Shown one piece after another: positions 26,587 to 40,961 of a DNA stretch of 64,000 nt; the stretch's first letter is position 1; every line of letters begins with the position of its first letter. The DNA lies in assembly GCA_025544715.1 (NCBI GenBank), contig GCA_025544715.1_4109.2. One strand, 5' to 3'. A program made the translations under genes and the position numbers. The stretch comes from Escherichia coli (GTDB lineage Bacteria > Pseudomonadota > Gammaproteobacteria > Enterobacterales > Enterobacteriaceae). The notes beneath the pieces were generated by a model, which saw only the letters and a program-made list of their open reading frames with translations, searched no databases and was not told the DNA's origin.

Positions 26587-26594
26587 TTTATTTC

Positions 26595-26628
26595 CTTAAA
26601 AAAATACCCAGTACTTGACTGGGTATTT
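26595..26628 (-). terminator. intrinsic terminator
   Basis: 10-bp stem AAATACCCAG / CTGGGTATTT followed by U7 on minus strand. Confidence 0.55.
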
Positions 26629-26640
26629 ACAAAGTAACGT

Positions 26641-26790
26641 TTAATCAGATTTCTTTTCGTAATCTGTAAAAACAGTCAGGATTGTTGCACATAGTGAATC
26701 AACTACTGATGCACGTGTGTTATCAAGGTCTTTAGCTAGTGCTTGAATCTCTTGAAGTTTTACTACTAAGTCGATTTTTTGATTACTCAT
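26641..26790 (-). CDS. possible small ORF (49 aa)
   Basis: hand translation MSNQKIDLVVKLQEIQALAKDLDNTRASVVDS...; below track cutoff. Confidence 0.3.
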   Translation of the reverse strand: MSNQKIDLVVKLQEIQALAKDLDNTRASVVDSLCATILTVFTDYEKKSD

Positions 26791-26812
26791 TACTTCTCCT
26801 ATTGGATGTTTT

Positions 26813-27103
26813 TTAGATATTAATTTTTATACCACTAAGGTCTAGAACTTTTTTATTAGATACTGTTTCTGATTCTAATTTAGTTTCTTTTACCTCAGTG
26901 TTAATATTTACGTCATCTTTGAGAATATCAGGGATAATACCATGTTGAATATCATCGTACATAGAAACAACGGTTTCGGCACAAGATAACATTTCACGAA
27001 CTTTGTACTGATAACCCTGTGGTAACTCATTGATGATTTCCATAATATCTAGTAATTTAGTTTGGACATCAATAAGAATTTTTCTTGATTTTTCTGGTTC
27101 CAT
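26813..27103 (-). CDS. hypothetical protein (96 aa)
   Basis: ORF track. Confidence 0.4.
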   Translation of the reverse strand: MEPEKSRKILIDVQTKLLDIMEIINELPQGYQYKVREMLSCAETVVSMYDDIQHGIIPDILKDDVNINTEVKETKLESETVSNKKVLDLSGIKINI

Positions 27104-27609
27104 TACTCCAACTCCACAACATTACTTTTTTTGGATTTAATCACTGATGGTGGCTCATTAACGCTTGTTTGACCACGAAGTGATTTTTCCAACGCAATGA
27201 TGCGTTTTAAAGTTTTTATTGATGGTCGCTTCTTCGTCAACTCAGCTTTTGCTTCTGAATAATATTTTCTTACATATCCATAGGCATAATATTTTGAACC
27301 AATGAAAATTTCAGCAACTACTGGATTTGAGTATTGTGTATCAATCCCATTCTGTTCTGTCTCTACAGTGTAAAATGAAATATTTGTATCACATGCTGAA
27401 ATTTTAGCCACCAAAAGATTTGCATCGAACTTATCTAAAATTAGAGAAATTGTTTTTTCGGCATCAGCACTATATGGCATAGCAGACATTAAAAGTTGGA
27501 ATGTCTTAAAGTACTTACTTCCACTAATCATGGTATTGAAAATCAATCCAATGGTGATTAATGCAAGTGTACCAATACACACAAACAAAAACCAATATTC
27601 AACACTCAT
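27103..27609 (-). CDS. hypothetical protein with N-terminal TM helix (168 aa)
   Basis: ORF track; hydrophobic N-terminus. Confidence 0.45.
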   Translation of the reverse strand: MSVEYWFLFVCIGTLALITIGLIFNTMISGSKYFKTFQLLMSAMPYSADAEKTISLILDKFDANLLVAKISACDTNISFYTVETEQNGIDTQYSNPVVAEIFIGSKYYAYGYVRKYYSEAKAELTKKRPSIKTLKRIIALEKSLRGQTSVNEPPSVIKSKKSNVVELE

Positions 27610-27674
27610 TTATAAATCCTCTTACTTTATATGATTAAAATGCCCCATCAAAAATGATGAGGCGGTAAGATAAA

Positions 27675-27884
27675 TTACTTACGATTTGCTTTACGCAGTT
27701 CAGATAGTTCTTCTTGAAGACTTTTCTTCCATGCAATCAAGTGAGCAAAACGGATTGGCCTTGCACCAGTACCGTGGAATACTGCTAGAGCTTCTTCTGC
27801 TTGATGAATCTGGAATTGAATGTAGTTCACAGTGCGGTCGAAGTCGGTGATATCTAGTACTTGTGCGTTAGTTTCTTTAGCCAT
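27675..27884 (-). CDS. hypothetical protein (69 aa)
   Basis: ORF track. Confidence 0.35.
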   Translation of the reverse strand: MAKETNAQVLDITDFDRTVNYIQFQIHQAEEALAVFHGTGARPIRFAHLIAWKKSLQEELSELRKANRK

Positions 27885-27999
27885 TTTAATACCCTTTTAT
27901 TTCTTTTTTATGAAAAACCCTCATCATTGAGGAATGGTTTGCATTTTAATATCTGCCGATAACAAACATTATATCACAATATCTGTTCTTGTCCAATTT

Positions 28000-28359
28000 T
28001 TAATTATTAGAAAGAACAATTTTTGAAACTGGTAAATCTGTATTATTTACACGTTGTTCATTATATCCATTCTGTACAAGAATGTCAATAACTTTAGACT
28101 TATCAATTGTAAATGATTCTAACATATCATATCGGTAATAACCAATAGTCTGACTGAACTCATATTTTCCTGGCTGTTGACGACAACACGTATTTGTTTC
28201 AGCCATAATCTTATTGATTAGGTAATATGTTTCAGTACTATCAATATTTGGAATATAGATCTTATCATCAAAATGAATTACTTCATGTTTATTCATAGAG
28301 TGATTCAATCTCCGCTTTAAGAATGGAAATGATCTCTTTCTGAAGGCCAGTAATTTCAC
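28000..28359 (-). CDS. hypothetical protein (119 aa)
   Basis: ORF track. Confidence 0.4.
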   Translation of the reverse strand: MKLLAFRKRSFPFLKRRLNHSMNKHEVIHFDDKIYIPNIDSTETYYLINKIMAETNTCCRQQPGKYEFSQTIGYYRYDMLESFTIDKSKVIDILVQNGYNEQRVNNTDLPVSKIVLSNN

Positions 28360-28558
28360 TGTTCAAAGATGATAGTCGCTTCGATAATGCCATGAATTGC
28401 TTTGCATCTTCTTTAGAACGGTCATTTCGTACTTTATCAGAACTCCAGTTAGCATATGATTGCTCATCTTTCCTGTTAAGGATATCCCAGTCTAAACGTA
28501 CTAGTTTACGTTCTTTCTTCAGTTCGCTTAAGCGAGATTTCATTTCTTCTTTAGTCAT
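28289..28558 (-). CDS. hypothetical protein (89 aa)
   Basis: ORF track; start may be a downstream Met. Confidence 0.4.
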   Translation of the reverse strand: MTKEEMKSRLSELKKERKLVRLDWDILNRKDEQSYANWSSDKVRNDRSKEDAKQFMALSKRLSSLNSEITGLQKEIISILKAEIESLYE

Positions 28559-28848
28559 TAGATTGTTCCTTTCATGAAGTCTGGAATAACGATTACGATA
28601 GGAGGATTATACTCTACATAACCATTTTTTGTCAATAGACTTTTAATATCTGAAATCACATTATCATGCTGTTCAATATCTTTATCACAAAAGATTTCCA
28701 ATTCTTTCTGAAACGGTTTTTTAACCGAGATGTTTTGAGTCAGTGTTTGGATTCTCTGTAACATATCAATTGGATCTGGACTGAACTCATTACCAACATA
28801 AAGAGTACCAGATGCATCTTTTTCTAGCAAGACTTCTAAAATTTTCAT
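28558..28848 (-). CDS. hypothetical protein (96 aa)
   Basis: ORF track. Confidence 0.4.
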   Translation of the reverse strand: MKILEVLLEKDASGTLYVGNEFSPDPIDMLQRIQTLTQNISVKKPFQKELEIFCDKDIEQHDNVISDIKSLLTKNGYVEYNPPIVIVIPDFMKGTI

Positions 28849-29681
28849 TTCTTATCCTTCAATTTACTAAAGTTTTCTCGTGTAAATCCAGGAACTGGAA
28901 AATATACATCACAGTCAACATCAGGATTAATAATTACCATGTCATTACATATTATATCACGAATTTTACTACCGTCCACGATTTTTTGCATTAAATCATT
29001 CCATTTTTTACGAGAAATGACGAATGTACTAATTATACATAAATCATGTCCACGTTTTGAAATATATCCTAATACTTCATTATCGTAAACAACACGTATA
29101 GTAACTTTTCCAATTGTTACCCCTCTTACTGGATTAATACTAGTATCTTCAAAAATTAATTCTAATTTAAGTTTACCATTTGAAATAAGTGATGAAGTAT
29201 ATTTAGAAACCATTTTATCAATTTCTTGAGTCAAATCATCTCTACCTAGATATTCAAATACCGAATAAGTTAATTCGTCTGCACATAACTGTTGGATAGT
29301 TGGAAGCTGGGCAACCATATCTAAAGATACAGGTTCGATATATATTCTTTCAATATCAGACGATTGTACAAATAGACAACCATCAGGTGTCGTATCTCTA
29401 ACAATTTCGGCATAATATGTATAAAGATAAAAAACATTAGACTCTGATGAGTCAGTTTCTACCCAAATCTCAGATTGTTTCATTTCATCTTTATGAAGAA
29501 TTCGTTGAGTAAATCCTATGTAAAAACCAAGATATAAATCATCATCAGTTTCAAACGGATTAAACATCAAATACGGATATTTGTCAAGGTACTCATTGAA
29601 CTTACGCTGCACATCTCTATCACAATCCATGATATACTTTCGGAATTCAGAAATGATTATTTTTTCTAATGACATAATCAA
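28845..29681 (-). CDS. hypothetical protein (278 aa)
   Basis: ORF track. Confidence 0.5.
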   Translation of the reverse strand: MIMSLEKIIISEFRKYIMDCDRDVQRKFNEYLDKYPYLMFNPFETDDDLYLGFYIGFTQRILHKDEMKQSEIWVETDSSESNVFYLYTYYAEIVRDTTPDGCLFVQSSDIERIYIEPVSLDMVAQLPTIQQLCADELTYSVFEYLGRDDLTQEIDKMVSKYTSSLISNGKLKLELIFEDTSINPVRGVTIGKVTIRVVYDNEVLGYISKRGHDLCIISTFVISRKKWNDLMQKIVDGSKIRDIICNDMVIINPDVDCDVYFPVPGFTRENFSKLKDKK

Positions 29682-29875
29682 TCCTCAAGATGCATGTAGT
29701 ACATAAACATCGCCAACCATATAAAAAAGCCGAAACAACGAAGTAAAATATCAATTGTTGGATCTGTCCCACCATTAACTTGGTAAACAATTACTGGGAT
29801 TAAAGCAATAGTAAGAGACACAGCACATAAGATGAATGCAACAAACACCTCAAATATAAACTTAATTGTTTCCAT
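29678..29875 (-). CDS. hypothetical small membrane protein (65 aa)
   Basis: two hydrophobic segments. Confidence 0.35.
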   Translation of the reverse strand: METIKFIFEVFVAFILCAVSLTIALIPVIVYQVNGGTDPTIDILLRCFGFFIWLAMFMYYMHLED

Positions 29876-30434
29876 TATTATCCTTCAGTGTGTAGTGTAG
29901 TACATCTAAAAAGTTATACATTGATTCATTACGCATAACCTTGATTGTTAAATTACGACAACCCAACATACGTTTGAGGCGACGCTTCACCGCAGTTAAA
30001 TCATGTGTACTATTCGTATACAGACCATTAACCTGACCTGGAACAGTTGGCACATGAAGAATGTAATCATAATTCATTAGTAAGCGTTGATTATATTTCT
30101 TTAATGCTTGCTTGTATTCTGAAATATTTTCAAAGAATGTACAATAACGGTCGTAACGATTCATTTTATTCAAAATTGAAATACGAAAAGCGTTACCACT
30201 ATTCCAATCATCTTCAGTTGGGTTTGGGTTGATATGTGCCATGTTAGCTGTACTGTACCCACCACTTGTGAAAACTTCAGAATATCCATTCTCAAAAACA
30301 TACAATGTTGCTTTGTGGCCTCGGAATTCTTTACGGTACTTTGACAGTACTTGAATGTGATTACGCTTGGACTTGTACATCTCGTAACCTTCATAATCTG
30401 AACTGAATTCACAAATTTTATCAACACCAGCCAT
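29862..30434 (-). CDS. hypothetical protein (190 aa)
   Basis: ORF track. Confidence 0.5.
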   Translation of the reverse strand: MAGVDKICEFSSDYEGYEMYKSKRNHIQVLSKYRKEFRGHKATLYVFENGYSEVFTSGGYSTANMAHINPNPTEDDWNSGNAFRISILNKMNRYDRYCTFFENISEYKQALKKYNQRLLMNYDYILHVPTVPGQVNGLYTNSTHDLTAVKRRLKRMLGCRNLTIKVMRNESMYNFLDVLHYTLKDNNGNN

Positions 30435-30491
30435 TTCGTATATCCTCGTTTAATTAATATAGGAGTATTATATATACTCCATTTTCATTTG

Positions 30492-30635
30492 TCAAGCTTT
30501 ATAATACGGAAGACTTTTTACTAAAGATTCAGACGTATTATTTTTTACCCATGTACTACCGTTGTCATTAGATACGTATCCAGTACCATTAATAAATTTA
30601 CGCATAATACCAGTAAAAATGTTAGTGTATACCAT
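30492..30635 (-). CDS. possible small ORF (47 aa)
   Basis: hand translation MVYTNIFTGIMRKF...; start overlaps upstream stop. Confidence 0.25.
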   Translation of the reverse strand: MVYTNIFTGIMRKFINGTGYVSNDNGSTWVKNNTSESLVKSLPYYKA

Positions 30636-30805
30636 TATTCAGAATCCTTCGGTTTAGAATGCAAACCATACTTTTCATCATAACGATCATAGGTAGTGCC
30701 ATTAGTACTGGCTTTGATGCTTTCGGTTCGATTGATTTTTTCAATCTTAACACCACGATAACCAATCTCTTCTTTAAATTGTTCCCATGATTCACGTAGA
30801 CTCAT
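30635..30805 (-). CDS. possible small ORF (~56 aa)
   Basis: hand translation MSLRESWEQFKEEIGYRGVKIEK...; GGGGA-type RBS upstream. Confidence 0.3.
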   Translation of the reverse strand: MSLRESWEQFKEEIGYRGVKIEKINRTESIKASTNGTTYDRYDEKYGLHSKPKDSE

Positions 30806-30822
30806 TTTTAGTCCCCTTTTGT

Positions 30823-30966
30823 TATTTCATACACTCACGTAGGTCAATCTTTTCTACTGACCCACCGAGTACTAGATAGTAAAAATTGGAATCTTTGTTA
30901 GCCATATTCAAAAGATCTGCTTTCTGTTGAAGCGTAAAGCGTGAAGTACTGTTACGTACTGGCATA
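30823..30966 (-). CDS. possible small ORF (47 aa)
   Basis: hand translation MPVRNSTSRFTLQQKADLLNMANK... Confidence 0.25.
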
Positions 30967-30967
30967 G

Positions 30968-31411
30968 TTACTCCTTAAAGTAGATATCACGAATTTGCTT
31001 AATCATCTCTAACTCTTGAAGTCCTATCATACCAAAGTTTTCTTGTACTGTCAACTGTTGGAAGTACATTTCCTCTAAATTATTATAAGGAATATCCACT
31101 AATGATAAAGGAACACTTTCACCACGGTATAGCAGATCTTCAACGAAAAGTTTTAAAATCATGATAGAAAATGAATCTTTTTGGATATGAAATTTGTAAA
31201 ATGTTTGGTTAGTACTGAACATTGTATTTGATGGATTGAAACCCATTTCAACAAATACTGTATCTTTATCATTATGTTTGAAATATGTACATCTTGAATT
31301 CGCAAGAACTTTAGATTTTGGGAAATAAAAATCACCCATCAACTTCTGTCGTTTCCAATCCTCGTATACAACTGGATGCTTAACCTTCTTCAATTGGTGC
31401 AGTACTGTCAT
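30968..31411 (-). CDS. EE-x-FFQ-x-S motif paralogue family protein
   Basis: C-terminal NNLEEMYFQQLTVQENFGMIGLQELEMI. Confidence 0.55.
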   Translation of the reverse strand: MTVLHQLKKVKHPVVYEDWKRQKLMGDFYFPKSKVLANSRCTYFKHNDKDTVFVEMGFNPSNTMFSTNQTFYKFHIQKDSFSIMILKLFVEDLLYRGESVPLSLVDIPYNNLEEMYFQQLTVQENFGMIGLQELEMIKQIRDIYFKE

Positions 31412-31791
31412 AGTTTTTTCCAGTCCAATGAATCGAAATCGATTTGCTCAGGATTATCAACAGCGACAACTCGTGCATTATGAAGAGTTTCAAAGTAGCC
31501 GTTCCACGGTGTTCGTAATGGAACTGTCACATCGCCAACTTTAACCAAGAATGAATATTCTGGTGATATTGGGTCAAACCACTCTTTTTGTTTAGCATTT
31601 TCAACGATAGTTTCGTGTTCTTTAGTATAGCAATTATCTTGCTTCATATAAAACACCCAATGCTCTTTTAGGCACTGTAAAGCAGCAACTGCTTCCTCTT
31701 TAGAAGACCATTGAATATCAATTGTATCAAGAACGTCATAACAATTTTCAGTGTCCCCTGTAGTGTAATGTACTTCAATGCTGTATTTCAT
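31408..31791 (-). CDS. hypothetical protein (127 aa)
   Basis: ORF track; lacks the family motif. Confidence 0.45.
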   Translation of the reverse strand: MKYSIEVHYTTGDTENCYDVLDTIDIQWSSKEEAVAALQCLKEHWVFYMKQDNCYTKEHETIVENAKQKEWFDPISPEYSFLVKVGDVTVPLRTPWNGYFETLHNARVVAVDNPEQIDFDSLDWKKL

Positions 31792-32246
31792 TAATCATCG
31801 CCTTTTAGTAATTTACAAATTTCAATCATATGATAATAACATGTATTCCAAAATTGTCCATTAGTACTTCCAACATCATGCACTGTACTTTGCTGGAACA
31901 CATATTCATCGTTGAACATCATTTTAATATCATCAATGTAAAATTCTGGTTTTGAATCATTATTGTATTCAATACTCGTTTCACCATCTGGATCAAGTGA
32001 AATTGATGATATGTCGTGAATTCCTCTCGGATTTGTTGGATAAATTCTCAACGTAAGAGGATAGAAGTCTGGATCGGTTTCATAAGTATATTCGATTATG
32101 TAATAACCATCACCAGTAATTGATTGATATTTAAATGTAGTTTCAATTGAATTTGAGATGTTAAATCCCAGTTTCTTTATCTCATGTAGATGTGATAATA
32201 TTTTATGTAAAGATCCTAAAACATGAATCAAATTATCAATTTTCAT
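31791..32246 (-). CDS. EE-x-FFQ-x-S motif paralogue family protein
   Basis: C-terminal FNDEYVFQQSTVHDVGS. Confidence 0.55.
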   Translation of the reverse strand: MKIDNLIHVLGSLHKILSHLHEIKKLGFNISNSIETTFKYQSITGDGYYIIEYTYETDPDFYPLTLRIYPTNPRGIHDISSISLDPDGETSIEYNNDSKPEFYIDDIKMMFNDEYVFQQSTVHDVGSTNGQFWNTCYYHMIEICKLLKGDD

Positions 32247-32785
32247 TTACGATCCTTTGAAAAGTTCAGTTTAAAAGTTTTACCAAATTCCATTGTAGCT
32301 TTACCCAGATTGTTAATATTTTCTTTCAACATTTCTTGCATCTTCCTAATACTTTCAATCCAGGTTTCTTCTTCGATACGAAGAATTGGTCGCAATCGTT
32401 CCTGAATATCGTTAAAACGTGTATTGAGTTCAACCAATGATTCATATGTGAAATCTTTCATATCGATAATAGTACTTCTTTGAAAGAATTCTTCTTCAGA
32501 CAAATTACTTAAAATGATTTTATCACGACCAATAGATAATGTCAATTCATCATCTTTATTTTTTTTAATTACAATACTAACAGGTGTTTTTAATGTAATG
32601 CAAATATCATGATTATTAAATGTTTCAGTTTGGTTTGACATTCTGAATTGAAGTTTCCCAGATAAAGCATGTACTGGTGATGGTTGCTTTTTACCAGTAA
32701 TAACATCTTCCCATGAATCGAGAATATTATTAATAATTTTAACATAAGGAATTGGCATATATGCACCTATGAAAAATCCACGCAA
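32243..32785 (-). CDS. EE-x-FFQ-x-S motif paralogue family protein (180 aa)
   Basis: LSEEEFFQRSTIIDMKDF with extended C-terminal tail. Confidence 0.55.
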   Translation of the reverse strand: MRGFFIGAYMPIPYVKIINNILDSWEDVITGKKQPSPVHALSGKLQFRMSNQTETFNNHDICITLKTPVSIVIKKNKDDELTLSIGRDKIILSNLSEEEFFQRSTIIDMKDFTYESLVELNTRFNDIQERLRPILRIEEETWIESIRKMQEMLKENINNLGKATMEFGKTFKLNFSKDRK

Positions 32786-32800
32786 TGCGTGGATTTGTAA

Positions 32801-33331
32801 TTATTCAAGTATAGTAATTTCAATTAAACGAATTTCGATAAACTCGTTTTCAGTTTCCCATGACGTGCCAAATTTCTTTTCAAGTTCAGATTTCACATCA
32901 CTTTTAAATTTTCCCATAGTATTAGGAATAATTTGTTTGGTTAATTTGTCGTAACCACAATAAAACATAGGTTTCTCCCTTCGAGATATTAGCTGAACAA
33001 AATCTTTTGGATATGCAGGTATGTTATGCATCACTTCATGAATACACTCAGTACTTGAATCTTGTACTTTGTAGATTACATTAAGTTTACCTCTGAAATT
33101 TGCGGTCATATCAACAATAGTTCCTTTACCCGATTTAAGTAAAGTTCCATTCTTTGAATGAGAGCAATAAAATACCTCATCACCAATATTAGGATAATAC
33201 AAATTAAATTCTAATTCAGATTTTACAGCCAGCCGTTTGAAACTTTCTGTACGTTTTATATAAGTTTGGTATTTGTTTATGTTCAAAAGAATATCTCTCT
33301 TAGTAAATGTGATATAACTGGCATAGTCCAT
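32801..33331 (-). CDS. hypothetical protein (176 aa)
   Basis: ORF track. Confidence 0.45.
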   Translation of the reverse strand: MDYASYITFTKRDILLNINKYQTYIKRTESFKRLAVKSELEFNLYYPNIGDEVFYCSHSKNGTLLKSGKGTIVDMTANFRGKLNVIYKVQDSSTECIHEVMHNIPAYPKDFVQLISRREKPMFYCGYDKLTKQIIPNTMGKFKSDVKSELEKKFGTSWETENEFIEIRLIEITILE

Positions 33332-34143
33332 CCATTCCCAAGCATTTTGTATGCTTGTGTCTTACTAGACACTTTAAAGAAATCTTCAGGAACACCCTGT
33401 AATTTACAACATTCTACTACACTTAAGTGTCTATAGTCAATATTTCTTTTGCCATTCTCTAATAGATATTGACGATTAATCACTGGATCACGAAACACCA
33501 ATTGTCGTCTGGATTTATTAAAGTACTGGTTACAATCACCACCTTTAAAATAGTTAGCATCTATACAGTACGAAGCGGTTCTGTCAGTGTACCAACCATC
33601 TTCAATAATATCTTGAAGTTTAGGTGCATTGGATAATGCAGGTGGTATAAAAAGCTTATCAGTACTGTACCAGTAATATCTCTGCCTGAAGTGAGGCGTA
33701 TAATGCTGGGAGTTTATCAGTACTGGCGTGATTCCTAAAATACTATTAATGTATTCTTTGAAATCTTCCTTCATTTTGACATTTTCAAACAGAAATTTCA
33801 AGTTAGGATTGAGACTTTTGATATGATCAAAAATTTCAACCATTACTAAAAATAACTGCCCACGTATATCATTTAAACCACCCTGTTTACCTGCAACTGA
33901 CCAGGCTTGGCATGGGAAACCACCCATTAATAAATCTATTTTGTCCCACTCAATATCCCATTCTCTCCACTTAGTTACATCACCCAATTGGATAATATCA
34001 GGAAAGTTAGATTGAGATTCAGCTATTGCGTACTTATCAATTTCGGATGAATAATATTTTTCAACTGGGATACCAGCATCTTGCAATGCCATATATCCCA
34101 CACTCATTCCATTAAAAAGAGAAAGTACTCGGATAGGTTTCAT
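33283..34143 (-). CDS. DNA (cytosine-5)-methyltransferase (286 aa)
   Basis: C5-MTase motifs: LSLFNGMSVG (motif I-like), GGFPCQAWS (PCQ), ENV, HFRQRYYW, MLGNGWTMPV (motif X-like). Confidence 0.75.
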   Translation of the reverse strand: MKPIRVLSLFNGMSVGYMALQDAGIPVEKYYSSEIDKYAIAESQSNFPDIIQLGDVTKWREWDIEWDKIDLLMGGFPCQAWSVAGKQGGLNDIRGQLFLVMVEIFDHIKSLNPNLKFLFENVKMKEDFKEYINSILGITPVLINSQHYTPHFRQRYYWYSTDKLFIPPALSNAPKLQDIIEDGWYTDRTASYCIDANYFKGGDCNQYFNKSRRQLVFRDPVINRQYLLENGKRNIDYRHLSVVECCKLQGVPEDFFKVSSKTQAYKMLGNGWTMPVISHLLREIFF

Positions 34144-34195
34144 ATAAAATCCTTTTTATATTGTTAAGGTACTATAATATATTATAGCATCTTAT

Positions 34196-34486
34196 TTAGA
34201 AATCTTCCAAACTTTTTTCATCACACCATCGTGATGTACAGATGATTGCAGATGCCAGAATTGAAGAACTTGCACGTCCTCCACCGAGTAAGTACTGGCT
34301 AATTACGCCAATCATATTGAACACTTTATCATACTCGGTTAGTTGTTCAAAACCTTTCTTCCAATGCTGATATTCTTCTTCTGTGATATTAAACTCACCA
34401 TCAAGTTCCTTTAAAATCTTTTTAAGCACAGCACTATGTTCACTCATCATCATCTCCATATCGTTCGTCATAAAAATCATCATCAC
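34196..34486 (-). CDS. hypothetical protein (96 aa)
   Basis: ORF track. Confidence 0.4.
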   Translation of the reverse strand: MMMIFMTNDMEMMMSEHSAVLKKILKELDGEFNITEEEYQHWKKGFEQLTEYDKVFNMIGVISQYLLGGGRASSSILASAIICTSRWCDEKSLEDF

Positions 34487-34525
34487 GATCTAATGGTTCT
34501 TTTGGCTTTTCAGACATATATTTCC

Positions 34526-34786
34526 TCACATGGTAAATGTATTATCACCATCCATATCTTCATCAGTTGCTTCAGCTAATGTCTTGATTGTAAGTAATCC
34601 ACGCTTCACGTACAACATGAAGACCTTTTCATAATTACCAAACATAATCTCAGGTGACATGTAATTCTCTGTTACAATGACGATTGGACGGCCCTGTGAA
34701 AGCATACGAAACATAGTACGATATTTGTCAAATGTGCGAAATTCATCCATGTTCATCATGTGGCGTTTACGAACTACTTTAGTCAT
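34526..34786 (-). CDS. hypothetical protein (86 aa)
   Basis: ORF track. Confidence 0.4.
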   Translation of the reverse strand: MTKVVRKRHMMNMDEFRTFDKYRTMFRMLSQGRPIVIVTENYMSPEIMFGNYEKVFMLYVKRGLLTIKTLAEATDEDMDGDNTFTM

Positions 34787-34800
34787 CTTATTACCTTTAG

Positions 34801-35241
34801 TTAATTGAACTCTACTTCTGGATAATGATTATAGAACATCTCACGAACTGCGTCAAGATGTTCTTTAAATTTCTCAATGTCATCGAGTGTTAATATAGTG
34901 TCACATATAGTACTTAACTGAAAGAGTGATTCTTCAGTACTGTTTAACTCCAAATCAAATGTAGATGACGATTCATCTGAGATAATATTACCACATATTT
35001 CAAATGTGTCAATATGAACATCATTCAGTTTATTACCAATATAATCATTATATATGAACACAAAAATGTATGATGATTTTTTAGTATAGGTTTTAACATC
35101 ATATGTTATGTAACATTTAAAGTCAAATGTATCATATTCCAATGATACAATTCCAACATCACGATATTCGTTTGTTTCACTTGTTAAATCCGGTATAGAT
35201 GTAATACCTAATAAATCAAAAAACTTTATTGGATTTAGCAT
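34801..35241 (-). CDS. EE-x-FFQ-x-S motif paralogue family protein
   Basis: C-terminal STEESLFQLSTICDTILTLDDIEKF. Confidence 0.55.
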   Translation of the reverse strand: MLNPIKFFDLLGITSIPDLTSETNEYRDVGIVSLEYDTFDFKCYITYDVKTYTKKSSYIFVFIYNDYIGNKLNDVHIDTFEICGNIISDESSSTFDLELNSTEESLFQLSTICDTILTLDDIEKFKEHLDAVREMFYNHYPEVEFN

Positions 35242-35687
35242 TTGATTACCTTTGGATTTTGTTCGATTATGTCAAATAATGACAAAACCATTTCATTTAT
35301 TTTTTCAAAACTTAAGACTATATAACTTAAATCTTTATAATCATAATTAAAATTTTGAATAAGTGATTCCTGGAAATATCCTTCTTCTGTTATGCATGTA
35401 CTTGCATTATATATAGTTGTACAAGTCACATCAGTATAAGTTGAAATAATTTCAATAATGTCAGATATAGTATTGTATATTAACATAACTGTTGTTGTTC
35501 TGATAAGTGGGTTGTAAAAGGATAACTCAGTACGGTCATAGGTCTTTTCAATATGAACTATACATGAATGTGAATAAGAACTACTAATATGTATATACTC
35601 TTTAGGTGATACTACACTTTTGGTATCGAAATTACAAGATAATGCAATTTCAAAATGTTTTTTTATTTCGTCAACATTCATCCTCAC
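35235..35687 (-). CDS. EE-x-FFQ-x-S motif paralogue family protein
   Basis: C-terminal ITEEGYFQESLIQNF. Confidence 0.55.
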   Translation of the reverse strand: MRMNVDEIKKHFEIALSCNFDTKSVVSPKEYIHISSSYSHSCIVHIEKTYDRTELSFYNPLIRTTTVMLIYNTISDIIEIISTYTDVTCTTIYNASTCITEEGYFQESLIQNFNYDYKDLSYIVLSFEKINEMVLSLFDIIEQNPKVIKC

Positions 35688-36055
35688 TCACCATTAATTT
35701 TTATATTTGTATAGTCTAATGCTTTTTTAACAATATCGATTTCTGTAATTCCTATTACATTTTTCTCAATCACTGACAATTGGAATAGTTCCTCTTCGGA
35801 AATATCAATACTGTGGATTCTTGTACAATAATCGTTGAAGTCATATACATATCGTATTGTATAGTCGTTTATAGAAACTGATACAATTGCAATCCCATCA
35901 TGGATATAAGTTAGTTCATTTGAGTATCTATTAAAAATTAACCTATCTGGTGAACCTAATGGTAGTTGAAATGTATTTCTAGTATCTTGAACAATAACAA
36001 AATCATCATCTATATTTTTACTCAGAACACCCAAAATATCATATATAGTAGTCAT
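35684..36055 (-). CDS. EE-x-FFQ-x-S motif paralogue family protein
   Basis: C-terminal ISEEELFQLSVIEKNVIGITEIDIV. Confidence 0.55.
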   Translation of the reverse strand: MTTIYDILGVLSKNIDDDFVIVQDTRNTFQLPLGSPDRLIFNRYSNELTYIHDGIAIVSVSINDYTIRYVYDFNDYCTRIHSIDISEEELFQLSVIEKNVIGITEIDIVKKALDYTNIKINGE

Positions 36056-36056
36056 G

Positions 36057-36461
36057 TTATTCTTTACCTTCAGCAGTTCTGATAATTTTCATAACTTCTC
36101 TGGATAGTGCATATACTTTTTTATAGTGCTCATACGTTACTGAACCAACATTATTAATAGTACTTTCCATGAAGAAAGTTTCTTCTGTATACAGTTCATT
36201 TGACAATGCAACCAGTTCTTGGTGAAATTTTGAGTCCTTCCAATAACGAAATTCAAAAACAAATTGTCCGTCATGTCCGACTCTACAACATTCAGAACGA
36301 TCACTGTCTACACAGCTAATAACAATATCACTTTCTGAATCATACCAGATATTTCCCATATTTGTTTCAATAACAGCATAATCAATTTTTGTAGAATTGG
36401 GAATTAAACCTTTTTTCACCAGCACTAAACTGGTATTGTCAATATCTAGTAAACTTACCAT
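36057..36461 (-). CDS. EE-x-FFQ-x-S motif paralogue family protein
   Basis: C-terminal YTEETFFMESTINNVGSVTYEHY. Confidence 0.55.
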   Translation of the reverse strand: MVSLLDIDNTSLVLVKKGLIPNSTKIDYAVIETNMGNIWYDSESDIVISCVDSDRSECCRVGHDGQFVFEFRYWKDSKFHQELVALSNELYTEETFFMESTINNVGSVTYEHYKKVYALSREVMKIIRTAEGKE

Positions 36462-36462
36462 A

Positions 36463-36873
36463 TCAATTCCTCATTACTAAAGTGTTTTTAATCTCTAACA
36501 ATTTACTATAAATCTTCTTGAATTGTAATATATCTTCAAAAGTAATACCACCAAGATCATCAACTAATGAACGTTGGAATAAAGATTCACTTGTTTGTAA
36601 TGTATCTAAATCGGTGATTTTTAATAAAGAACTTGGATTAAGTGTTTCGACTAGTAGTATGTTTTTGTATGGTACATATGTAATCTTGATGTTCTTTTTA
36701 TAATTAATCTTATAAAATCGCATAATTGACGATTCATCACTTAGTTGGATAATTGGGTCGTCTTGTTCATTAGACCACCATACAGTACTAGTCATATGAT
36801 TGACGTGGTGGTTCAATTCTGATATGTTCAAATCTAAAAAATATTTTATTTCATTGTGTAAATCTAAACTCAT
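36463..36873 (-). CDS. EE-x-FFQ-x-S motif paralogue family protein
   Basis: C-terminal QTSESLFQRSLVDDLGGITFEDILQF. Confidence 0.55.
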   Translation of the reverse strand: MSLDLHNEIKYFLDLNISELNHHVNHMTSTVWWSNEQDDPIIQLSDESSIMRFYKINYKKNIKITYVPYKNILLVETLNPSSLLKITDLDTLQTSESLFQRSLVDDLGGITFEDILQFKKIYSKLLEIKNTLVMRN

Positions 36874-36928
36874 AAATTTATCCTCAATGCAGCATCATCA
36901 TGTATTGTAGGATAAACCCACAATAATG

Positions 36929-37393
36929 TCAAGATGTAAAATAATTATACCAGTAATATAGTTCTTTTAATTCTTCAGTACTGAATAATACTTCTTCTAT
37001 TGTAGATTGTTGAAAGTGATATTCATCATTAAGATACATAGAAATATTACTATATACTTTCCTATTGTATTGACATAAAAAAGAAGTTTTTTTATTAATG
37101 TATTCAGTAAATGTTAATTTATCTAACTCAATATCGAAAGATAATCTAATAATATTAATATTATCATTTACATACATTAGTTTCTTTGAAAAATGATCAA
37201 TTGTAATATATTCTTTGTGAGAGAACTGAAATATATTATTAAATTTTTTACCATTTGTGCTTCTAAATTTTTCAAGGTAATAAGAAAGTGGTTTAATTAT
37301 TGAAGTTCCAATATTATTTTTCATATATACTCGAATTTTAGATAATAAAAATGCCCCGAAGATCGGGGCAGTACTAAAATGATTTTGTACCAA
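36929..37393 (-). CDS. EE-x-FFQ-x-S motif paralogue family protein
   Basis: C-terminal LNDEYHFQQSTIEEVLFSTEELKEL. Confidence 0.55.
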   Translation of the reverse strand: MVQNHFSTAPIFGAFLLSKIRVYMKNNIGTSIIKPLSYYLEKFRSTNGKKFNNIFQFSHKEYITIDHFSKKLMYVNDNINIIRLSFDIELDKLTFTEYINKKTSFLCQYNRKVYSNISMYLNDEYHFQQSTIEEVLFSTEELKELYYWYNYFTS

Positions 37394-37486
37394 AAGGGGA
37401 ATAAGAACAAAATGAAAATATAATAACGCATCATTATTATGTAAAGGGAGGAAAGTAACATGATATGTTAACCATTTCTGGTATAT

Positions 37487-38038
37487 TTATTTATCATTTA
37501 ATTCTTTAAGTTGGGTTTGTATATCTTTAGTTATATTGCGAATTTTCTTAAAGCAATAAACACTATCATCCAATTCGATTTTAAGTTCATGTGTAAATGC
37601 ATACAGAAGTTCAGCAAATACTAAATCTTGTCGCATCCAGTTTCCATCTTTATATAAAGTCATTACACAATATGGGCATTCACTATTAGAAGTTTGCTTT
37701 CCAATAAAAACACTTTGAATTGATTCATGCTTAAAGCCAATAAAACTTTCATTTATTTTTTTAATTTCAGTACTGATATCGAATTTAGCACTGGTGTTGA
37801 TTGCAAAAATTTTATTCCCACTTTCATCAGTATTGATATTGAGTTCAATATCACTACCTAGTTTACGTACTGCTAGAGTATAAAGAAGTAATTCATACAT
37901 GTCGTAACTTGTTACATTACCATTTGGTGCAATTACATCAACACTAACACCGTGCATTTTTACTTCTGTATTAAATCCATCTTTATCAGAAAGAAAATCA
38001 GTGATTTGCTTTGTAAGGATTTTAATTTGGTCTATCAT
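37487..38038 (-). CDS. hypothetical protein (183 aa)
   Basis: ORF track. Confidence 0.45.
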   Translation of the reverse strand: MIDQIKILTKQITDFLSDKDGFNTEVKMHGVSVDVIAPNGNVTSYDMYELLLYTLAVRKLGSDIELNINTDESGNKIFAINTSAKFDISTEIKKINESFIGFKHESIQSVFIGKQTSNSECPYCVMTLYKDGNWMRQDLVFAELLYAFTHELKIELDDSVYCFKKIRNITKDIQTQLKELNDK

Positions 38039-38091
38039 ATTTCATTTCCTTATGTGATAAAAGCCTCCATTATGGAGGCTTTTGTATTTAC

Positions 38092-38520
38092 TTAGAGAGA
38101 TTCTTCGTATTCAGCAACAATCCCAACCATTTCATTAATGAACTTGATGTGAGAATGTGTCACTGTACGGAAGTCGTAAACAAGTGACTGTTGGAAAAAT
38201 ACATCTTCATCAAGAGAACCATCAAAGTTCAAATCAATGTTTTCATCGTCATTGCTTGGTGCAACTTTAATATTCAGAAGATTTTCATCAACTGCAAGTT
38301 TTACAACACAACCCAGTGCAATGGCAAGAACATATGCTGGTTTCTTAGCTTTTTCATTACGGAATGGTGCACGTAGAGCACAAAAAGTACTGCTAATCTC
38401 ATCATTTGGTTCTTTGTATTTAACATTGACCATTAGTTCTTCGATTTTGACGCTCTCAATAACACGACCAGTTTCTGGAGCGAAGAAAGAATGTTCACGG
38501 ATAGTTTGTTCGATATTCAT
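38092..38520 (-). CDS. EE-x-FFQ-x-S motif paralogue family protein
   Basis: C-terminal SLDEDVFFQQSLVYDFRTVTHSHIKFI. Confidence 0.55.
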   Translation of the reverse strand: MNIEQTIREHSFFAPETGRVIESVKIEELMVNVKYKEPNDEISSTFCALRAPFRNEKAKKPAYVLAIALGCVVKLAVDENLLNIKVAPSNDDENIDLNFDGSLDEDVFFQQSLVYDFRTVTHSHIKFINEMVGIVAEYEESL

Positions 38521-38523
38521 ATA

Positions 38524-38718
38524 TTATTCCTTATTTAGATTGCTAAAAATACGAAGATTGCGGTTTGCTTTAAACTGTTTCAAATCACCAAATCTATCAT
38601 CAACGATGAAAGTTGCTGATTTCTTTGACTGACATATTGTACAAATCAACATACCTTGTATTGTATACTCAGTTGAGCAATTTGTACAGTACTTTTTTTC
38701 ATAAAGTTCAGTACTCAT
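38524..38718 (-). CDS. small zinc-ribbon-like protein (64 aa)
   Basis: CTNC ... CTIC cysteine pairs. Confidence 0.35.
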   Translation of the reverse strand: MSTELYEKKYCTNCSTEYTIQGMLICTICQSKKSATFIVDDRFGDLKQFKANRNLRIFSNLNKE

Positions 38719-39050
38719 AAAACCTTCACATCAGTACGTTTTTCTCTTTGTTCTTTTTTAACCTCATCAGTTCTAGTATCTTCTAATTGTAACACAACTT
38801 CTTTTAGAATGTCAACATCAATTGTTGCTTCTACATATTGATAGTCGTTTACACCAAAAACATACTTTACTGCAACCCATACACGGTTATACCATTTTAA
38901 AAAAGGATTTAAACGCATACTTATCAGACATTGACCAAGTTTATCATCTCCATATTCCTCTGTCAAGTCAAATTGTGCAATGTGAACGCAATGCTCCATT
39001 TTATCGCCACAAGAACAACGTAAAATATACTCTTTACTATCTTCACTCAT
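38715..39050 (-). CDS. hypothetical Cys-containing protein (111 aa)
   Basis: ORF track; CSCGDKMEHCVH. Confidence 0.4.
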   Translation of the reverse strand: MSEDSKEYILRCSCGDKMEHCVHIAQFDLTEEYGDDKLGQCLISMRLNPFLKWYNRVWVAVKYVFGVNDYQYVEATIDVDILKEVVLQLEDTRTDEVKKEQREKRTDVKVL

Positions 39051-39469
39051 ACTGGATAAGCCTTTAAAAATTGTTTAAGAACTCCAAACTTAGATGAATC
39101 GTAATCGTATTGATAGTTAAGCTCTCGCTTATCATTCATACGATACACCATATGAAAATTTGGATAACCAATTCTAACAGGTTTTTTAGGATTAGCAAGT
39201 AAAATTGCCCATTCTTTTACAGGAAATACGTTTTCAGACAGCATTTTGATATTTGTTTCAAAATACTTCATGGCTTGCTTTCCGTGCTTGTAATCTTCTT
39301 CACTAATCTCTTGACAATCAATTCTATGTGTTTCGGTATCTAACACCCATTGTTGATCTTCGGTATATAAATCAATTACATCATCAATAGTATAACTATC
39401 AGGTAAATCATAAAATACCCAATGAGATAAACCAGAACTTACACCAATTCGAATTTTAAAGAACTTCAT
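39047..39469 (-). CDS. hypothetical protein (140 aa)
   Basis: ORF track; ATGA overlaps. Confidence 0.45.
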   Translation of the reverse strand: MKFFKIRIGVSSGLSHWVFYDLPDSYTIDDVIDLYTEDQQWVLDTETHRIDCQEISEEDYKHGKQAMKYFETNIKMLSENVFPVKEWAILLANPKKPVRIGYPNFHMVYRMNDKRELNYQYDYDSSKFGVLKQFLKAYPV

Positions 39470-39627
39470 TCTTTATCACCTTTTACATAATTATAACACA
39501 CGACACAGTGAATTACAAGAAGAATTATTTCCACAATATTAAGAGACAATACATGACTCTGCGGTGTGAAAAGTGCCGATAACAACATTATAGCAGGTAT
39601 TGTGAATATTTTCCAAGTTTTTTTCAT
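39466..39627 (-). CDS. small membrane protein (about 53 aa)
   Basis: track ORF 39466-39771 trimmed to internal Met MKKTWKIFTIPAIMLLSALF to avoid overlap with 39629-39859. Confidence 0.3.
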   Translation of the reverse strand: MKKTWKIFTIPAIMLLSALFTPQSHVLSLNIVEIILLVIHCVVCYNYVKGDKE

Positions 39628-39628
39628 T

Positions 39629-39859
39629 TTATTCCTTTGTATATGCGTATGGTAAAAATAAAACCTCTGCATTAGGAATGCATTGTGCCAATCCTTCAAC
39701 AATAGATTTGTTTTTATTACATTGCCAAACTTTAGTAATTTTATGTCTAAATACTTTTTTATCAACGACAATCCAGTACATGTCCATTTTAACAGTACTG
39801 TTATCAGATGGTGTTAGTAAAGTATCGATGTCATATGTATCAAAGATTTTGTCGTTCAT
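39629..39859 (-). CDS. hypothetical protein (76 aa)
   Basis: ORF track. Confidence 0.35.
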   Translation of the reverse strand: MNDKIFDTYDIDTLLTPSDNSTVKMDMYWIVVDKKVFRHKITKVWQCNKNKSIVEGLAQCIPNAEVLFLPYAYTKE

Positions 39860-40118
39860 ATAATCTCCTAATAAAGTATTCTCGATTCTCTCTTATATAC
39901 CCAGATACACAGTTAGTTGTGGCTTGGTTAGTGAATGAAATCTCACTATTGGACACACCATTTGAATCACACAAAGGACATATTCCCATGTACATGGGGG
40001 TCGGGTAGGTGTCCAATTTGTATTTTTCATTACACACCATGTACTGCTGTGGTAATACATCTAATATTATTTCATATTCTTCATCAAACACCTTGACACA
40101 TACCCAACATTTATTCAT
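39840..40118 (-). CDS. hypothetical Cys-rich protein (92 aa)
   Basis: CWVC ... CPLCD pairs suggest zinc binding. Confidence 0.4.
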   Translation of the reverse strand: MNKCWVCVKVFDEEYEIILDVLPQQYMVCNEKYKLDTYPTPMYMGICPLCDSNGVSNSEISFTNQATTNCVSGYIRENREYFIRRLYERQNL

Positions 40119-40602
40119 TATTGTTTTCCTTTAACACCGTTCTTATGTCTTCGAATGTTTTAACAAACCAATCATGTTCGTCGGATACATCTACAACTTT
40201 ACCACCATATACATAGTAATGGTAAAAAGGCAATTTGCTTTTTCTTAATCTTTCGGCTAACTCTGGATTTTGAATTATCTTAGCACAAATAGCATCTTGG
40301 ATTATTGAGATACAATCATCTGTCATTTCAATTCGATCATGCATATATTTGTTAGCGGCGGCCTTTGCTGCTGCCCCATATACTTTTCTAAGGTCATCAT
40401 GTTTTTGACCAGTTAAAAACCAAAAGTAAAATGTTTCAACTGATGGGAACCATCCATATGGTTCAAGTTTGAAGCTGTGCGAAGAAAAGTTAGATAGATC
40501 TCTACCTAACTTCGTTCTGGCTTTACTATAAATGTTAATATGTCGGTATCCATCATCAGTAGGGTCAATGAAGTTAAATGACTCTTCTGGGAATTCAAAC
40601 AT
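40111..40602 (-). CDS. possible YbiA/NADAR-like domain protein (163 aa)
   Basis: HINIYSKARTKLGRDLSNF...PSVETFYF resembles YbiA INFYS...FSNF region, by recall. Confidence 0.35.
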   Translation of the reverse strand: MFEFPEESFNFIDPTDDGYRHINIYSKARTKLGRDLSNFSSHSFKLEPYGWFPSVETFYFWFLTGQKHDDLRKVYGAAAKAAANKYMHDRIEMTDDCISIIQDAICAKIIQNPELAERLRKSKLPFYHYYVYGGKVVDVSDEHDWFVKTFEDIRTVLKENNNE

Positions 40603-40604
40603 AA

Positions 40605-40958: not shown

Positions 40959-40961
40959 AAA

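What the first reader, a model, noticed from the sequence alone, without database searches (positions are those of the whole stretch)
33283..34143. C5-cytosine methyltransferase, with AGTACT as a speculative target
The motif set is clear for a Dcm-type enzyme, and no partner restriction endonuclease is nearby, so it looks like an orphan protective methylase. The enriched hexamer AGTACT contains one cytosine per strand and could be its target, but that link is pure speculation.
Basis: partly seen in the sequence, partly recalled or inferred. Interest (0 to 1): 0.45.

Follow-up and report, generated by a model that had tools for sequence, protein, structure and literature searches.

The report
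Orphan phage cytosine-5 DNA methyltransferase
The gene is a real but already annotated DNA cytosine methylase of a giant E. coli phage; the very abundant AGTACT motif is also real, but it is just as abundant in related phages that lack the enzyme.

Summary
ORF 33283-34143 (-) encodes a 286-aa DNA cytosine-5 methyltransferase with all the catalytic motifs. It is 100% identical to gp91 of Escherichia phage 121Q and is annotated as a methyltransferase in about 50 Rak2-like jumbo phages. No recognisable restriction endonuclease lies nearby, so "orphan" holds. The fold is compact and closest to DNMT3, and the gene is under strong purifying selection (dN/dS 0.07).

AGTACT is truly enriched: 144 copies against 16-21 expected. 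It occurs in all three codon frames, is built through synonymous codon choice, and is conserved between relatives.

The proposed link to the methylase is not supported:
- Two Rak2-like lineages with no detectable C5 methylase (Eneladusvirus, Munch/7t3) keep the same 5-9x enrichment.
- Phage phi92, which carries a 51%-identical homologue, has no AGTACT in 35 kb.
- 79 other viral contigs with homologues are depleted in AGTACT.

One trace of a link remains. Genomes with the enzyme favour CAGTACTG, and genomes without it favour AAGTACTT.

The true target is unknown. A RaK2 bisulfite remark points to CpG, but digests of fEgEco12 argue against blanket CpG or CCWGG methylation.

Side finds: GCGC is absent from the 13 Rak2-like genomes sampled, and some alleles carry an intein at the catalytic cysteine.

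The parts
33283..34143 (-). Orphan DNA (cytosine-5) methyltransferase gene, 286 aa, identical to 121Q gp91
   Evidence: ORF list. PF00145 4.6e-38. 100% identity to P0001 / 121Q. AF2 model with pLDDT 94.4.
34096..34116 (-). Motif I, FNGMSVG (residues 10-16), the SAM-binding loop
   Evidence: Read from the translation. F10 and G12 are invariant in 54 homologues.
33907..33921 (-). Motif IV, GFPCQ (residues 75-79), with the catalytic nucleophile Cys78. In UE-S1-type alleles an intein sits between P77 and C78.
   Evidence: G75, P77 and C78 are invariant. Intein insertion point shown by BLASTP and Pfam.
33778..33786 (-). Motif VI, ENV (residues 120-122)
   Evidence: E120, N121 and V122 are invariant.
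33670..33687 (-). Motif VIII, RQRYYW (residues 153-158)
   Evidence: R153, R155 and W158 are invariant.
33433..33669 (-). Target-recognition region (residues 159-237, about 79 aa). Its conserved core is CIDANYFKGG..QYFNKSRRQ, followed by a short variable part.
   Evidence: Alignment with GAP32, K64-1, phi92 and metagenomic homologues. phi92-type enzymes carry an extra insert of about 45 aa here.
33388..33432 (-). Motif IX, RHLSVVECCKLQGVP (residues 238-252)
   Evidence: R238, L240 and E244 are invariant.
33328..33339 (-). Motif X, GNGW (residues 269-272)
   Evidence: G269, N270 and G271 are invariant.
1..64000 (.). Dispersed palindrome (C)AGTACT(G): 144 AGTACT copies, 27 of them as CAGTACTG, about one per 444 bp. 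Four lie inside the methylase gene (33522, 33661, 33719, 34124). It is listed because the finding invokes it, but it is not shown to belong to the methylase.

Best explanation
The ORF encodes an active, SAM-dependent DNA (cytosine-5) methyltransferase that the phage carries without a cognate endonuclease.

The mechanism is inferred from the family. The enzyme flips its target cytosine out of the helix. Cys78 of the PCQ motif attacks C6, the methyl group of SAM goes to C5, and the ENV and RxR motifs assist protonation and contact the flipped cytosine.

Its architecture is compact and DNMT3-like, with a target-recognition region of about 79 aa. The most likely role is to methylate replicating phage DNA at a short sequence that has not yet been identified, as protection against host restriction.

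The AGTACT over-representation is a separate property of the whole Rak2-like jumbo-phage lineage. It is a dispersed palindrome maintained by selection at the DNA level. The methylase neither causes it nor is needed for it. At most, the enzyme interacts with the motif's flanking C/G.
For: Shown:
- Family membership and intact motifs.
- A confident fold whose 50 best PDB matches are all DNMT3A/B/C catalytic domains, TM 0.73-0.80. The sequence profile ranks DNMT3B (6e-36) above HhaI (3e-32) and HaeIII (4e-28).
- Strong purifying selection: dN/dS = 0.07 against EC.P1.
- A single-copy orthologue in Asteriusvirus, EJP2, Mimasvirus, Hallingskeid, Kaldavass, XbC2 and Alcyoneusvirus.
- An intein at the catalytic Cys in five relatives.
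- No nuclease domain among the neighbours. Two distant homologues also sit in phage contexts without an endonuclease.

Dissociation from AGTACT:
- Lineages with no C5 homologue keep AGTACT at 5.3-7.5x: pEa12 80 against 11 expected, Yen9-04 101 against 16, Munch/7t3 128 against 24.
- phi92 has 0 against 11.9 expected.
- 79 homologue-bearing viral loci have 123 against 340 expected.

The motif itself is under selection:
- It occurs in all three codon frames and in intergenic DNA.
- Ser-Thr dipeptides are encoded AGT-ACT 58 times out of 108, against 15.8 expected.
- Sites are conserved in 72% of cases against 44% for composition-matched hexamers, p=2.5e-4.
Against: - Activity and target are not shown for this phage.
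- "No C5 homologue" rests on tblastn at E<=1e-8 plus the published pEa annotation. A very divergent enzyme could be missed.
- The C/G flank of AGTACT covaries with the presence of the enzyme: 45% against 23% of half-sites, and CAGTACTG at 22% against 4% of sites. That hints at some functional connection.
- A protective role is an inference. No palindrome was found that is tolerated in every enzyme-bearing genome and avoided in both enzyme-free lineages.
Confidence: 0.75

Rival explanations
1. The enzyme methylates the cytosine of AGTACT, possibly preferring CAGTACTG. This shields about 800 sites per genome from ScaI/Eco255I-type endonucleases and makes the enrichment affordable.
For: - AGTACT has one C per strand and is hugely abundant in a genome that otherwise purges GC-containing palindromes.
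- None of the published digests tested ScaI or RsaI.
- The flanking C/G preference, and the 40-67x excess of CAGTACTG, is seen in all nine enzyme-bearing genomes sampled. It drops to 6-10x in both enzyme-free lineages.
Against: - The enrichment is unchanged without the enzyme.
- The Munch group lacks both this enzyme and the N4C-type methylase of Eneladusvirus, yet keeps a 5.3x excess.
- phi92 and 79 other homologue carriers avoid AGTACT.
- From my own knowledge: AGTA(m5C)T is an R-m5C site, the substrate of McrBC. The relative Sharanji is recorded with E. coli K-12 MG1655 as its host.
- The deamination product AGTATT is not elevated.
Confidence: 0.17
2. The enzyme is a CpG-type (DNMT3-like) methylase, acting on all CpG or on CpG in a narrow context such as ACGT.
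For: - The RaK2 paper states, as data not shown, that bisulfite sequencing found methylated CpG (PMC3622015).
- RaK2 encodes only two methylases, and gp194 is the 63%-identical orthologue of this gene.
- The best sequence and fold matches are the CpG-specific DNMT3 enzymes.
- ACGT is not avoided.
Against: - fEgEco12 has a 95.8%-identical enzyme. Its virion DNA was reported to be cut by ClaI, NruI and SmaI with the predicted patterns (PMC13070987). From my own knowledge of supplier tables, these enzymes are blocked by CpG methylation.
- The C>T rate at CpG is not raised among relatives: 0.062 against 0.051-0.068 in other contexts.
- CGCG, CCGG and GCGC are still strongly avoided.
- The RaK2/K64-1 enzyme has PCT instead of PCQ and an 8-aa insert in the catalytic loop, so its specificity may differ.
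Confidence: 0.22
3. The enzyme is a functional analogue of Dcm. It methylates CCWGG and protects against EcoRII-type restriction.
For: - CCWGG is not avoided in enzyme-bearing genomes: Asteriusvirus 96 against 88 expected, Mimasvirus 34 against 30, Alcyoneusvirus 57 against 40, phi92 38 against 25.
- In Asteriusvirus the related sites are purged: CCSGG 2 against 46 expected, CCGG at 0.26x and GCGC at 0.
- Munch/7t3, which lack the enzyme, have CCWGG 1 against 49 expected.
- From my own knowledge: C-m5C-WGG is not a McrBC substrate.
Against: - Eneladusvirus lacks the enzyme but does not avoid CCWGG (0.76-0.99).
- SexAI (ACCWGGT) is dcm-sensitive, by my own knowledge, yet it was reported to give the predicted pattern on fEgEco12 DNA. 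The gel images were not seen.
- The E. coli Dcm subfamily model scores 21 bits against a cut-off of 710.
- Host Dcm alone could explain the tolerance in E. coli phages.
Confidence: 0.1
4. The methylase is not protective. It writes a regulatory or self-marking methyl group used in replication, packaging or discrimination from host DNA, or it is a selfish remnant with no role.
For: - No consistent relief of site avoidance separates enzyme-bearing from enzyme-free genomes.
- Two lineages have lost the gene and remain viable.
Against: - dN/dS of 0.07 and retention across at least five genera argue against a remnant.
- No direct evidence supports a regulatory use.
Confidence: 0.1

Closest known systems
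Escherichia phage 121Q gp91 / PBECO4 DNA methyltransferase and orthologues in Rak2-like jumbo phages (RaK2 gp194, GAP32_390, CBB_399)
   Same: The protein is identical to 121Q gp91 (100%), and 99.7% identical to the PBECO4 enzyme. Identity is 75% to GAP32 and CBB and 63% to RaK2 and K64-1. The genomic neighbourhood of small ORFans is the same.
   Different: None for 121Q. The RaK2/K64-1 orthologue has PCT instead of PCQ and an insert in the catalytic loop. Five relatives carry an intein at Cys78.
Catalytic domain of mammalian DNMT3A/3B/3C
   Same: These are the best sequence and fold matches among solved structures. The alignment is full-length at 25-28% identity with TM 0.73-0.80, and the size is the same, about 285 aa with a short target-recognition region.
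   Different: There are no PWWP or ADD domains and no DNMT3L partner. The DNMT3 TRD-loop residues that read CpG are not recognisably conserved in the alignment. CpG specificity is not shown, and published digests partly contradict it.
Orphan C5 methylases of phi92-like (Justusliebigvirus) coliphages and Vibrio phage ICP1
   Same: They belong to the same subfamily, at 51% and 45% identity, share the conserved CIDANY.KG...KSRRQ core, and are orphans in virulent phages.
   Different: They carry an extra insert of about 45 aa in the recognition region. The phi92 genome has no AGTACT and normal GCGC.
E. coli Dcm (CCWGG) and the classical type II methylases M.HhaI and M.HaeIII
   Same: Same catalytic motifs and chemistry.
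   Different: Dcm is about 470 aa with a different recognition domain, and its subfamily model is far below threshold. HhaI and HaeIII have partner endonucleases. GCGC, the HhaI site, does not occur in this genome at all.

Membership tests
DNA (cytosine-5) methyltransferase, PF00145 / TIGR00675 | Profile match above the curated threshold | tested here: met
   PF00145 scores 131.9 bits against 22. TIGR00675 scores 119.1 against 100.65.
DNA (cytosine-5) methyltransferase, PF00145 / TIGR00675 | Catalytic motifs I (FxGxG), IV (PC), VI (ENV), VIII (RxR), IX and X (GNG), in the canonical order | tested here: met
   All are present in the translation and invariant across 54 homologues.
DNA (cytosine-5) methyltransferase, PF00145 / TIGR00675 | Two-lobed Rossmann-type fold with a small recognition domain | tested here: met
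   AF2 model with pLDDT 94.4 and pTM 0.91. Foldseek gives TM 0.73-0.80 to DNMT3 catalytic domains.
DNA (cytosine-5) methyltransferase, PF00145 / TIGR00675 | Transfer of methyl from SAM to C5 of cytosine in DNA | not testable with these tools
   Only indirect evidence is available: the RaK2 bisulfite remark on an orthologue-bearing phage, given as data not shown.
Type II restriction-modification system | A cognate restriction endonuclease gene next to the methylase | tested here: not met
   The nine flanking ORFs have no nuclease family in Pfam, and PHROGs give unknown-function families only. Within +/-8 kb in 121Q all genes are hypothetical. The downstream ORF is only weakly similar to its GAP32 counterpart and is replaced by a much shorter ORF in K64-1. 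A novel small nuclease cannot be formally excluded.
E. coli Dcm subfamily (CCWGG) | Match to the Dcm subfamily model NF007772/PRK10458 above its cut-off | tested here: not met
   21.4 bits against a cut-off of 710.
E. coli Dcm subfamily (CCWGG) | CCWGG specificity | tested here: inconclusive
   CCWGG is tolerated in enzyme-bearing genomes and absent from Munch/7t3, but not avoided in Eneladusvirus. The SexAI digest of fEgEco12 was reported as predicted.
DNMT3-type de novo CpG methyltransferase | Similarity of the catalytic domain | tested here: met
   Best PDB hits by sequence, profile and fold.
DNMT3-type de novo CpG methyltransferase | N-terminal PWWP/ADD chromatin-reading domains | tested here: not met
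   The 286-aa protein consists of the catalytic domain only.
DNMT3-type de novo CpG methyltransferase | CpG specificity | tested here: inconclusive
   In favour: the RaK2 bisulfite remark. Against: ClaI, NruI and SmaI cut fEgEco12 DNA, and there is no CpG hypermutability.
AGTACT-specific modification methylase (ScaI/Eco255I-type protection) | The enzyme co-occurs with tolerance or enrichment of AGTACT | tested here: not met
   The enrichment is present without the enzyme. The site is avoided in phi92 and in 79 homologue-bearing loci.
AGTACT-specific modification methylase (ScaI/Eco255I-type protection) | Methylation of the AGTACT cytosine | not testable with these tools
   This needs a ScaI digest or a methylome map. 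No published digest used ScaI.

The most novel reading that the evidence does not exclude
The C5 methylase writes m5C on or next to the dispersed palindrome, with CAGTACTG as the preferred form in every enzyme-bearing genome. Rak2-like jumbo phages would then carry a genome-wide, selected, epigenetically marked 'self' element, about one per 450 bp. The methyl mark would tune the binding of an unknown phage factor or shield the element. Loss of the enzyme in Eneladusvirus and the Munch group would have been followed by a shift of the element's flanks to AAGTACTT.
Probability: 0.15. Interest if true: 0.65.

Novelty: already known. Interest (0 to 1): 0.33.

Why it matters
The methylase itself adds little. 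It is an annotated orphan C5 enzyme of a known phage group, and only its target is unknown.

The value of the check lies elsewhere.
- A palindromic hexamer kept at 5-9x excess by selection on synonymous sites.
- A complete ban on GCGC: 0 in 582 kb against 253-524 expected.
- A flank preference of the hexamer that tracks the presence of the methylase.

If the enzyme does act at this element, it would be a rare case of a phage-encoded epigenetic mark on a dispersed functional motif. If it does not, the factor that reads AGTACT is still unknown and worth finding.

Tried and rejected
1. **Mutation spectrum.** I aligned 25 kb from six relatives and polarised 1,556 singleton substitutions. The C>T rate at CpG (19/308 = 0.062) is no higher than at CpA, CpC or CpT (0.051-0.068). 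There is no deamination signature, so the test is uninformative for the target.

2. **Differential k-mer scan between enzyme-bearing and enzyme-free genomes.** The largest contrast is CTAG, which is avoided more in enzyme-bearing genomes. That is the wrong direction for protection and probably reflects the host. No palindrome is consistently relieved.

3. **Non-orthologous replacement.** I asked whether the SPPY N4C-type methylase of pEa_SNUABM_12 (PF01555) replaces the C5 enzyme. This is rejected. Mimasvirus has both enzymes and the Munch group has neither.

4. **Inferring specificity from endonuclease partners of homologues.** The two distant homologues I looked up sit in phage contexts as orphans.

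5. **IMG/VR scan for close relatives.** It returned only RaK2 plus distant homologues. These were used instead for the pooled AGTACT test.

6. **Literature.** I found no paper on AGTACT or GCGC in these phages.

7. **Multiple alignment of seven sheath regions.** MAFFT timed out, so I used pairwise blastn instead.

8. **Spacing of AGTACT sites.** The spacing is close to random: CV 0.87 against 0.99, p=0.06.

9. **Amino-methylase in the window.** No [DNS]PP[YFWH] motif occurs in any ORF of at least 100 aa.

Full report
**What is at the coordinates.** The minus-strand ORF 33283-34143 starts with ATG and encodes 286 aa. It matches three C5-methylase models: Pfam PF00145 (E=4.6e-38, 131.9 bits against a cut-off of 22), PHROG 116 (5e-60) and TIGR00675 (119 bits against 100.65). 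All canonical motifs are readable in order: FNGMSVG (I), GFPC78Q (IV), ENV (VI), RQRYYW (VIII), YRHLSVVECCKLQGVP (IX) and GNGW (X). Their key residues are invariant in an alignment of 54 homologues.

**Where the window comes from, and whether the gene is known.** The protein is 100% identical to gp91 of Escherichia phage 121Q and 99.7% identical to that of PBECO4. The surrounding 25 kb is 95-97% identical to about 30 Asteriusvirus genomes. GenBank already labels the gene as a DNA or cytosine methyltransferase in most of them. Orthologues at 63-78% identity occur in several other groups:
- GAP32 and CBB
- Erwinia phages Hallingskeid and Kaldavass
- Xanthomonas phage XbC2
- the Klebsiella Alcyoneusvirus group, where the orthologue is RaK2 gp194

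The gene is therefore a known, conserved component of the Rak2-like jumbo phages.

**Orphan status.** The nine ORFs flanking the gene have no significant Pfam domain and only unknown-function PHROGs. The 121Q record lists only hypothetical proteins within +/-8 kb. The ORF that overlaps the 3' end of the gene is only weakly similar to its GAP32 counterpart (32% over 74 aa). In K64-1 a much shorter ORF takes its place, so it is not a conserved partner. Two distant homologues that I looked up also sit in phage replication or structural contexts without an endonuclease. "Orphan" is supported, with one caveat: small novel nucleases cannot be excluded by homology.

**Structure and selection.**
- An AlphaFold2 model built on the 54-sequence alignment is confident (pLDDT 94.4, pTM 0.91).
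- Its 50 best matches among solved structures are all DNMT3A/B/C catalytic domains (TM 0.73-0.80, 24-28% identity).
- Sequence and profile searches agree: DNMT3B 6e-36, HhaI 3e-32, HaeIII 4e-28.
- The region between motifs VIII and IX is about 79 aa. It has a family-wide conserved core, CIDANY.KG...KSRRQ. phi92-type homologues carry an extra insert of about 45 aa there.
- Against EC.P1, whose DNA is about 84% identical, the gene has dS=0.37 and dN=0.027, so dN/dS=0.07.
- In UE-S1 the orthologue is 626 aa. A 340-aa Hint + LAGLIDADG intein is inserted exactly between P77 and the catalytic C78. TH47, JNE01, ph0011 and A4 give tblastn matches that start at residue 78, which fits the same insertion.

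These points indicate a functional enzyme.

**Is AGTACT really enriched?** Yes.
- There are 144 copies in 64 kb against 16.2 +/- 3.6 in dinucleotide-preserving shuffles, with a maximum of 27. That is 6.7x the composition expectation.
- The excess is specific to the full hexamer. Every single-substitution variant is at about 0.4-2x. CAGTACTG occurs 27 times, which is 46x expectation.
- It is not a protein-coding artefact. Sites fall in all three frames of minus-strand genes (58, 22 and 43), and 18 are intergenic.
- Synonymous codons are recruited to build the motif. Ser-Thr is written AGT-ACT 58 times out of 108 against 15.8 expected. x-Val-Leu forms the motif 44 times against 11.5. x-Tyr-x forms it 23 times against 4.1.
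- Individual sites are conserved more than composition-matched hexamers: 33/46 against 619/1397 between the window and TH47, p=2.5e-4.
- About a third to a half of sites are still at orthologous positions at around 70% DNA identity.
- The density is 1.8-3.5 per kb in every relative sampled.

**Is AGTACT linked to the methylase?** I queried the phage collection with a chimera of a Rak2-like tail-sheath protein and the methylase. A second matching place in a record then reports a methylase homologue.
- All Asteriusvirus, EJP2, GAP32, CBB, XbC2, Kaldavass and Hallingskeid records have a second place.
- Eneladusvirus has none at E<=1e-8. This covers six pEa_SNUABM phages, Serratia BF and Yersinia fHe-Yen9-03/04.
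- The Munch group also has none. This covers Munch, 7t3, SE_PL, PHA46 and fENko-Kae01.
- The published pEa annotation lists only adenine and N4-type methylases.

The enzyme-free genomes nevertheless show the same enrichment: pEa12 80 against 11 expected, Yen9-04 101 against 16, and Munch/7t3 128 against 24. The converse also holds. phi92, with a 51%-identical homologue, has 0 AGTACT against 11.9 expected in 35 kb. Seventy-nine IMG/VR loci carrying homologues have 123 against 340 expected, and none is enriched. The SPPY N4C-type methylase of Eneladusvirus is not a replacement either. Mimasvirus has both enzymes and the Munch group has neither. The enrichment is therefore a trait of the lineage that does not depend on this enzyme.

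**The one residual link.** The base next to the hexamer differs with the presence of the enzyme.
- In nine enzyme-bearing genomes, 36-52% of half-sites are flanked by C/G, and 11-33% of sites are CAGTACTG.
- In four enzyme-free genomes from two lineages, the figures are 21-26% and 2-5%. AAGTACTT is favoured there instead.
- Only the +/-1 position carries information.
- The pooled contrast is large (Fisher p=7e-24). It rests on only two independent losses and is not phylogenetically corrected.
- It is weaker at deeply conserved orthologous sites.

I treat this as a lead, not a finding.

**What is the target?** It is unknown. The evidence is as follows.
- The RaK2 paper says, as data not shown, that bisulfite sequencing found methylated CpG. 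It also says RaK2 DNA is cut only by enzymes insensitive to Dam, Dcm, CpG or EcoKI methylation (PMC3622015). RaK2 has only two methylases, and gp194 is the orthologue of this gene.
[quoted passage not shown] That phage's enzyme is 95.8% identical to this one. From my own knowledge of supplier tables, ClaI, NruI and SmaI are blocked by CpG methylation and SexAI by Dcm methylation. I could not see the gels.
- The C>T rate at CpG is not elevated among relatives.
- CCWGG is notable for not being avoided in enzyme-bearing genomes, which purge CCSGG, CCGG and GCGC. It is absent from Munch/7t3 (1 against 49 expected). Eneladusvirus, however, does not avoid it.
- From my own knowledge, m5C in AGTACT would create R-m5C sites, the substrate of McrBC. 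The relative Sharanji is recorded with E. coli K-12 MG1655 as host. That weighs against AGTACT.

My rough split for the target is: CpG in some context 0.22, AGTACT-related 0.17, CCWGG 0.10, and something else for the remainder.

**Verdict.** The "orphan C5 methylase" reading is supported and already known. The AGTACT link is not supported as an explanation of the enrichment, and it remains untested as a statement about enzyme specificity. The most interesting material lies outside the finding as written:
- the selected (C)AGTACT(G) element
- the total absence of GCGC (0 in 582 kb from 13 genomes against 253-524 expected)
- the intein at the catalytic cysteine

Noticed in passing
window 1-64000; also L002, L003, L005, L088, L091-L104: GCGC is completely absent. 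There are 0 copies in the window against 19-47 expected, and 0 in 582 kb sampled from 13 Rak2-like genomes of six lineages against 253 (Markov) to 524 (composition) expected. phi92 has normal GCGC (37 against 40). The ban holds whether or not the C5 methylase is present. One possibility is extreme avoidance of an HhaI/HinP1I-type enzyme. Another is a phage nuclease that cuts GCGC in host DNA.
   Followed up: partly
window 1-64000 (144 sites, e.g. 365, 551, 665 ... 63750): AGTACT is a dispersed element under selection. It sits at 5-9x excess in all six Rak2-like lineages sampled, in all codon frames, and is built by synonymous codon choice. Sites are conserved between relatives and spaced close to randomly, about one per 444 bp. 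Its function is unknown, and I found no paper describing it.
   Followed up: yes
L091:14772-16652 (-) (UE-S1); likewise TH47, JNE01, ph0011 and A4: The methylase orthologue carries a 340-aa intein (Hint + LAGLIDADG homing endonuclease). It is inserted exactly between Pro77 and the catalytic Cys78 of motif IV, so the catalytic cysteine is the +1 extein residue. The word 'intein' does not occur in the UE-S1 paper.
   Followed up: partly
window 1-64000: There is broad avoidance of GC-containing palindromes. About 25 six-base palindromes have zero copies against 1-5 expected each (e.g. CTGCAG, CAGCTG, GGATCC, GGTACC, CCATGG). CCGG has 5 against 47 expected and CCSGG 0 against 16. In contrast, GTAC, TGCA, CATG, ACGT and CCWGG are not avoided.
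   Followed up: partly
L095, L098 (Salmonella phages Munch and 7t3): These enzyme-free relatives have a different avoidance profile. CCWGG is 1 against 49 expected and GGWCC is 0 against 49. CCSGG (55 against 28) and CCGG (74 against 78) are not avoided.
   Followed up: no
L094:6775-7635 (+) (pEa_SNUABM_12 ORF151): This 286-aa methylase belongs to PF01555 and has an SPPY catalytic motif, which is typical of N4-cytosine enzymes. Homologues occur in Eneladusvirus and Mimasvirus only. It is unrelated to the C5 enzyme and its target is unknown.
   Followed up: partly
window 21001-46000 vs KM507819.1: The window is not 121Q itself. DNA identity is 97.3% over 90% of this stretch, with indels, although the methylase protein is identical. 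The window comes from a closely related Asteriusvirus.
   Followed up: no
window, whole: 115 of 121 called genes lie on the minus strand, and GC skew is negative throughout. This is a single long co-directional block of mostly small ORFans around the methylase.
   Followed up: no
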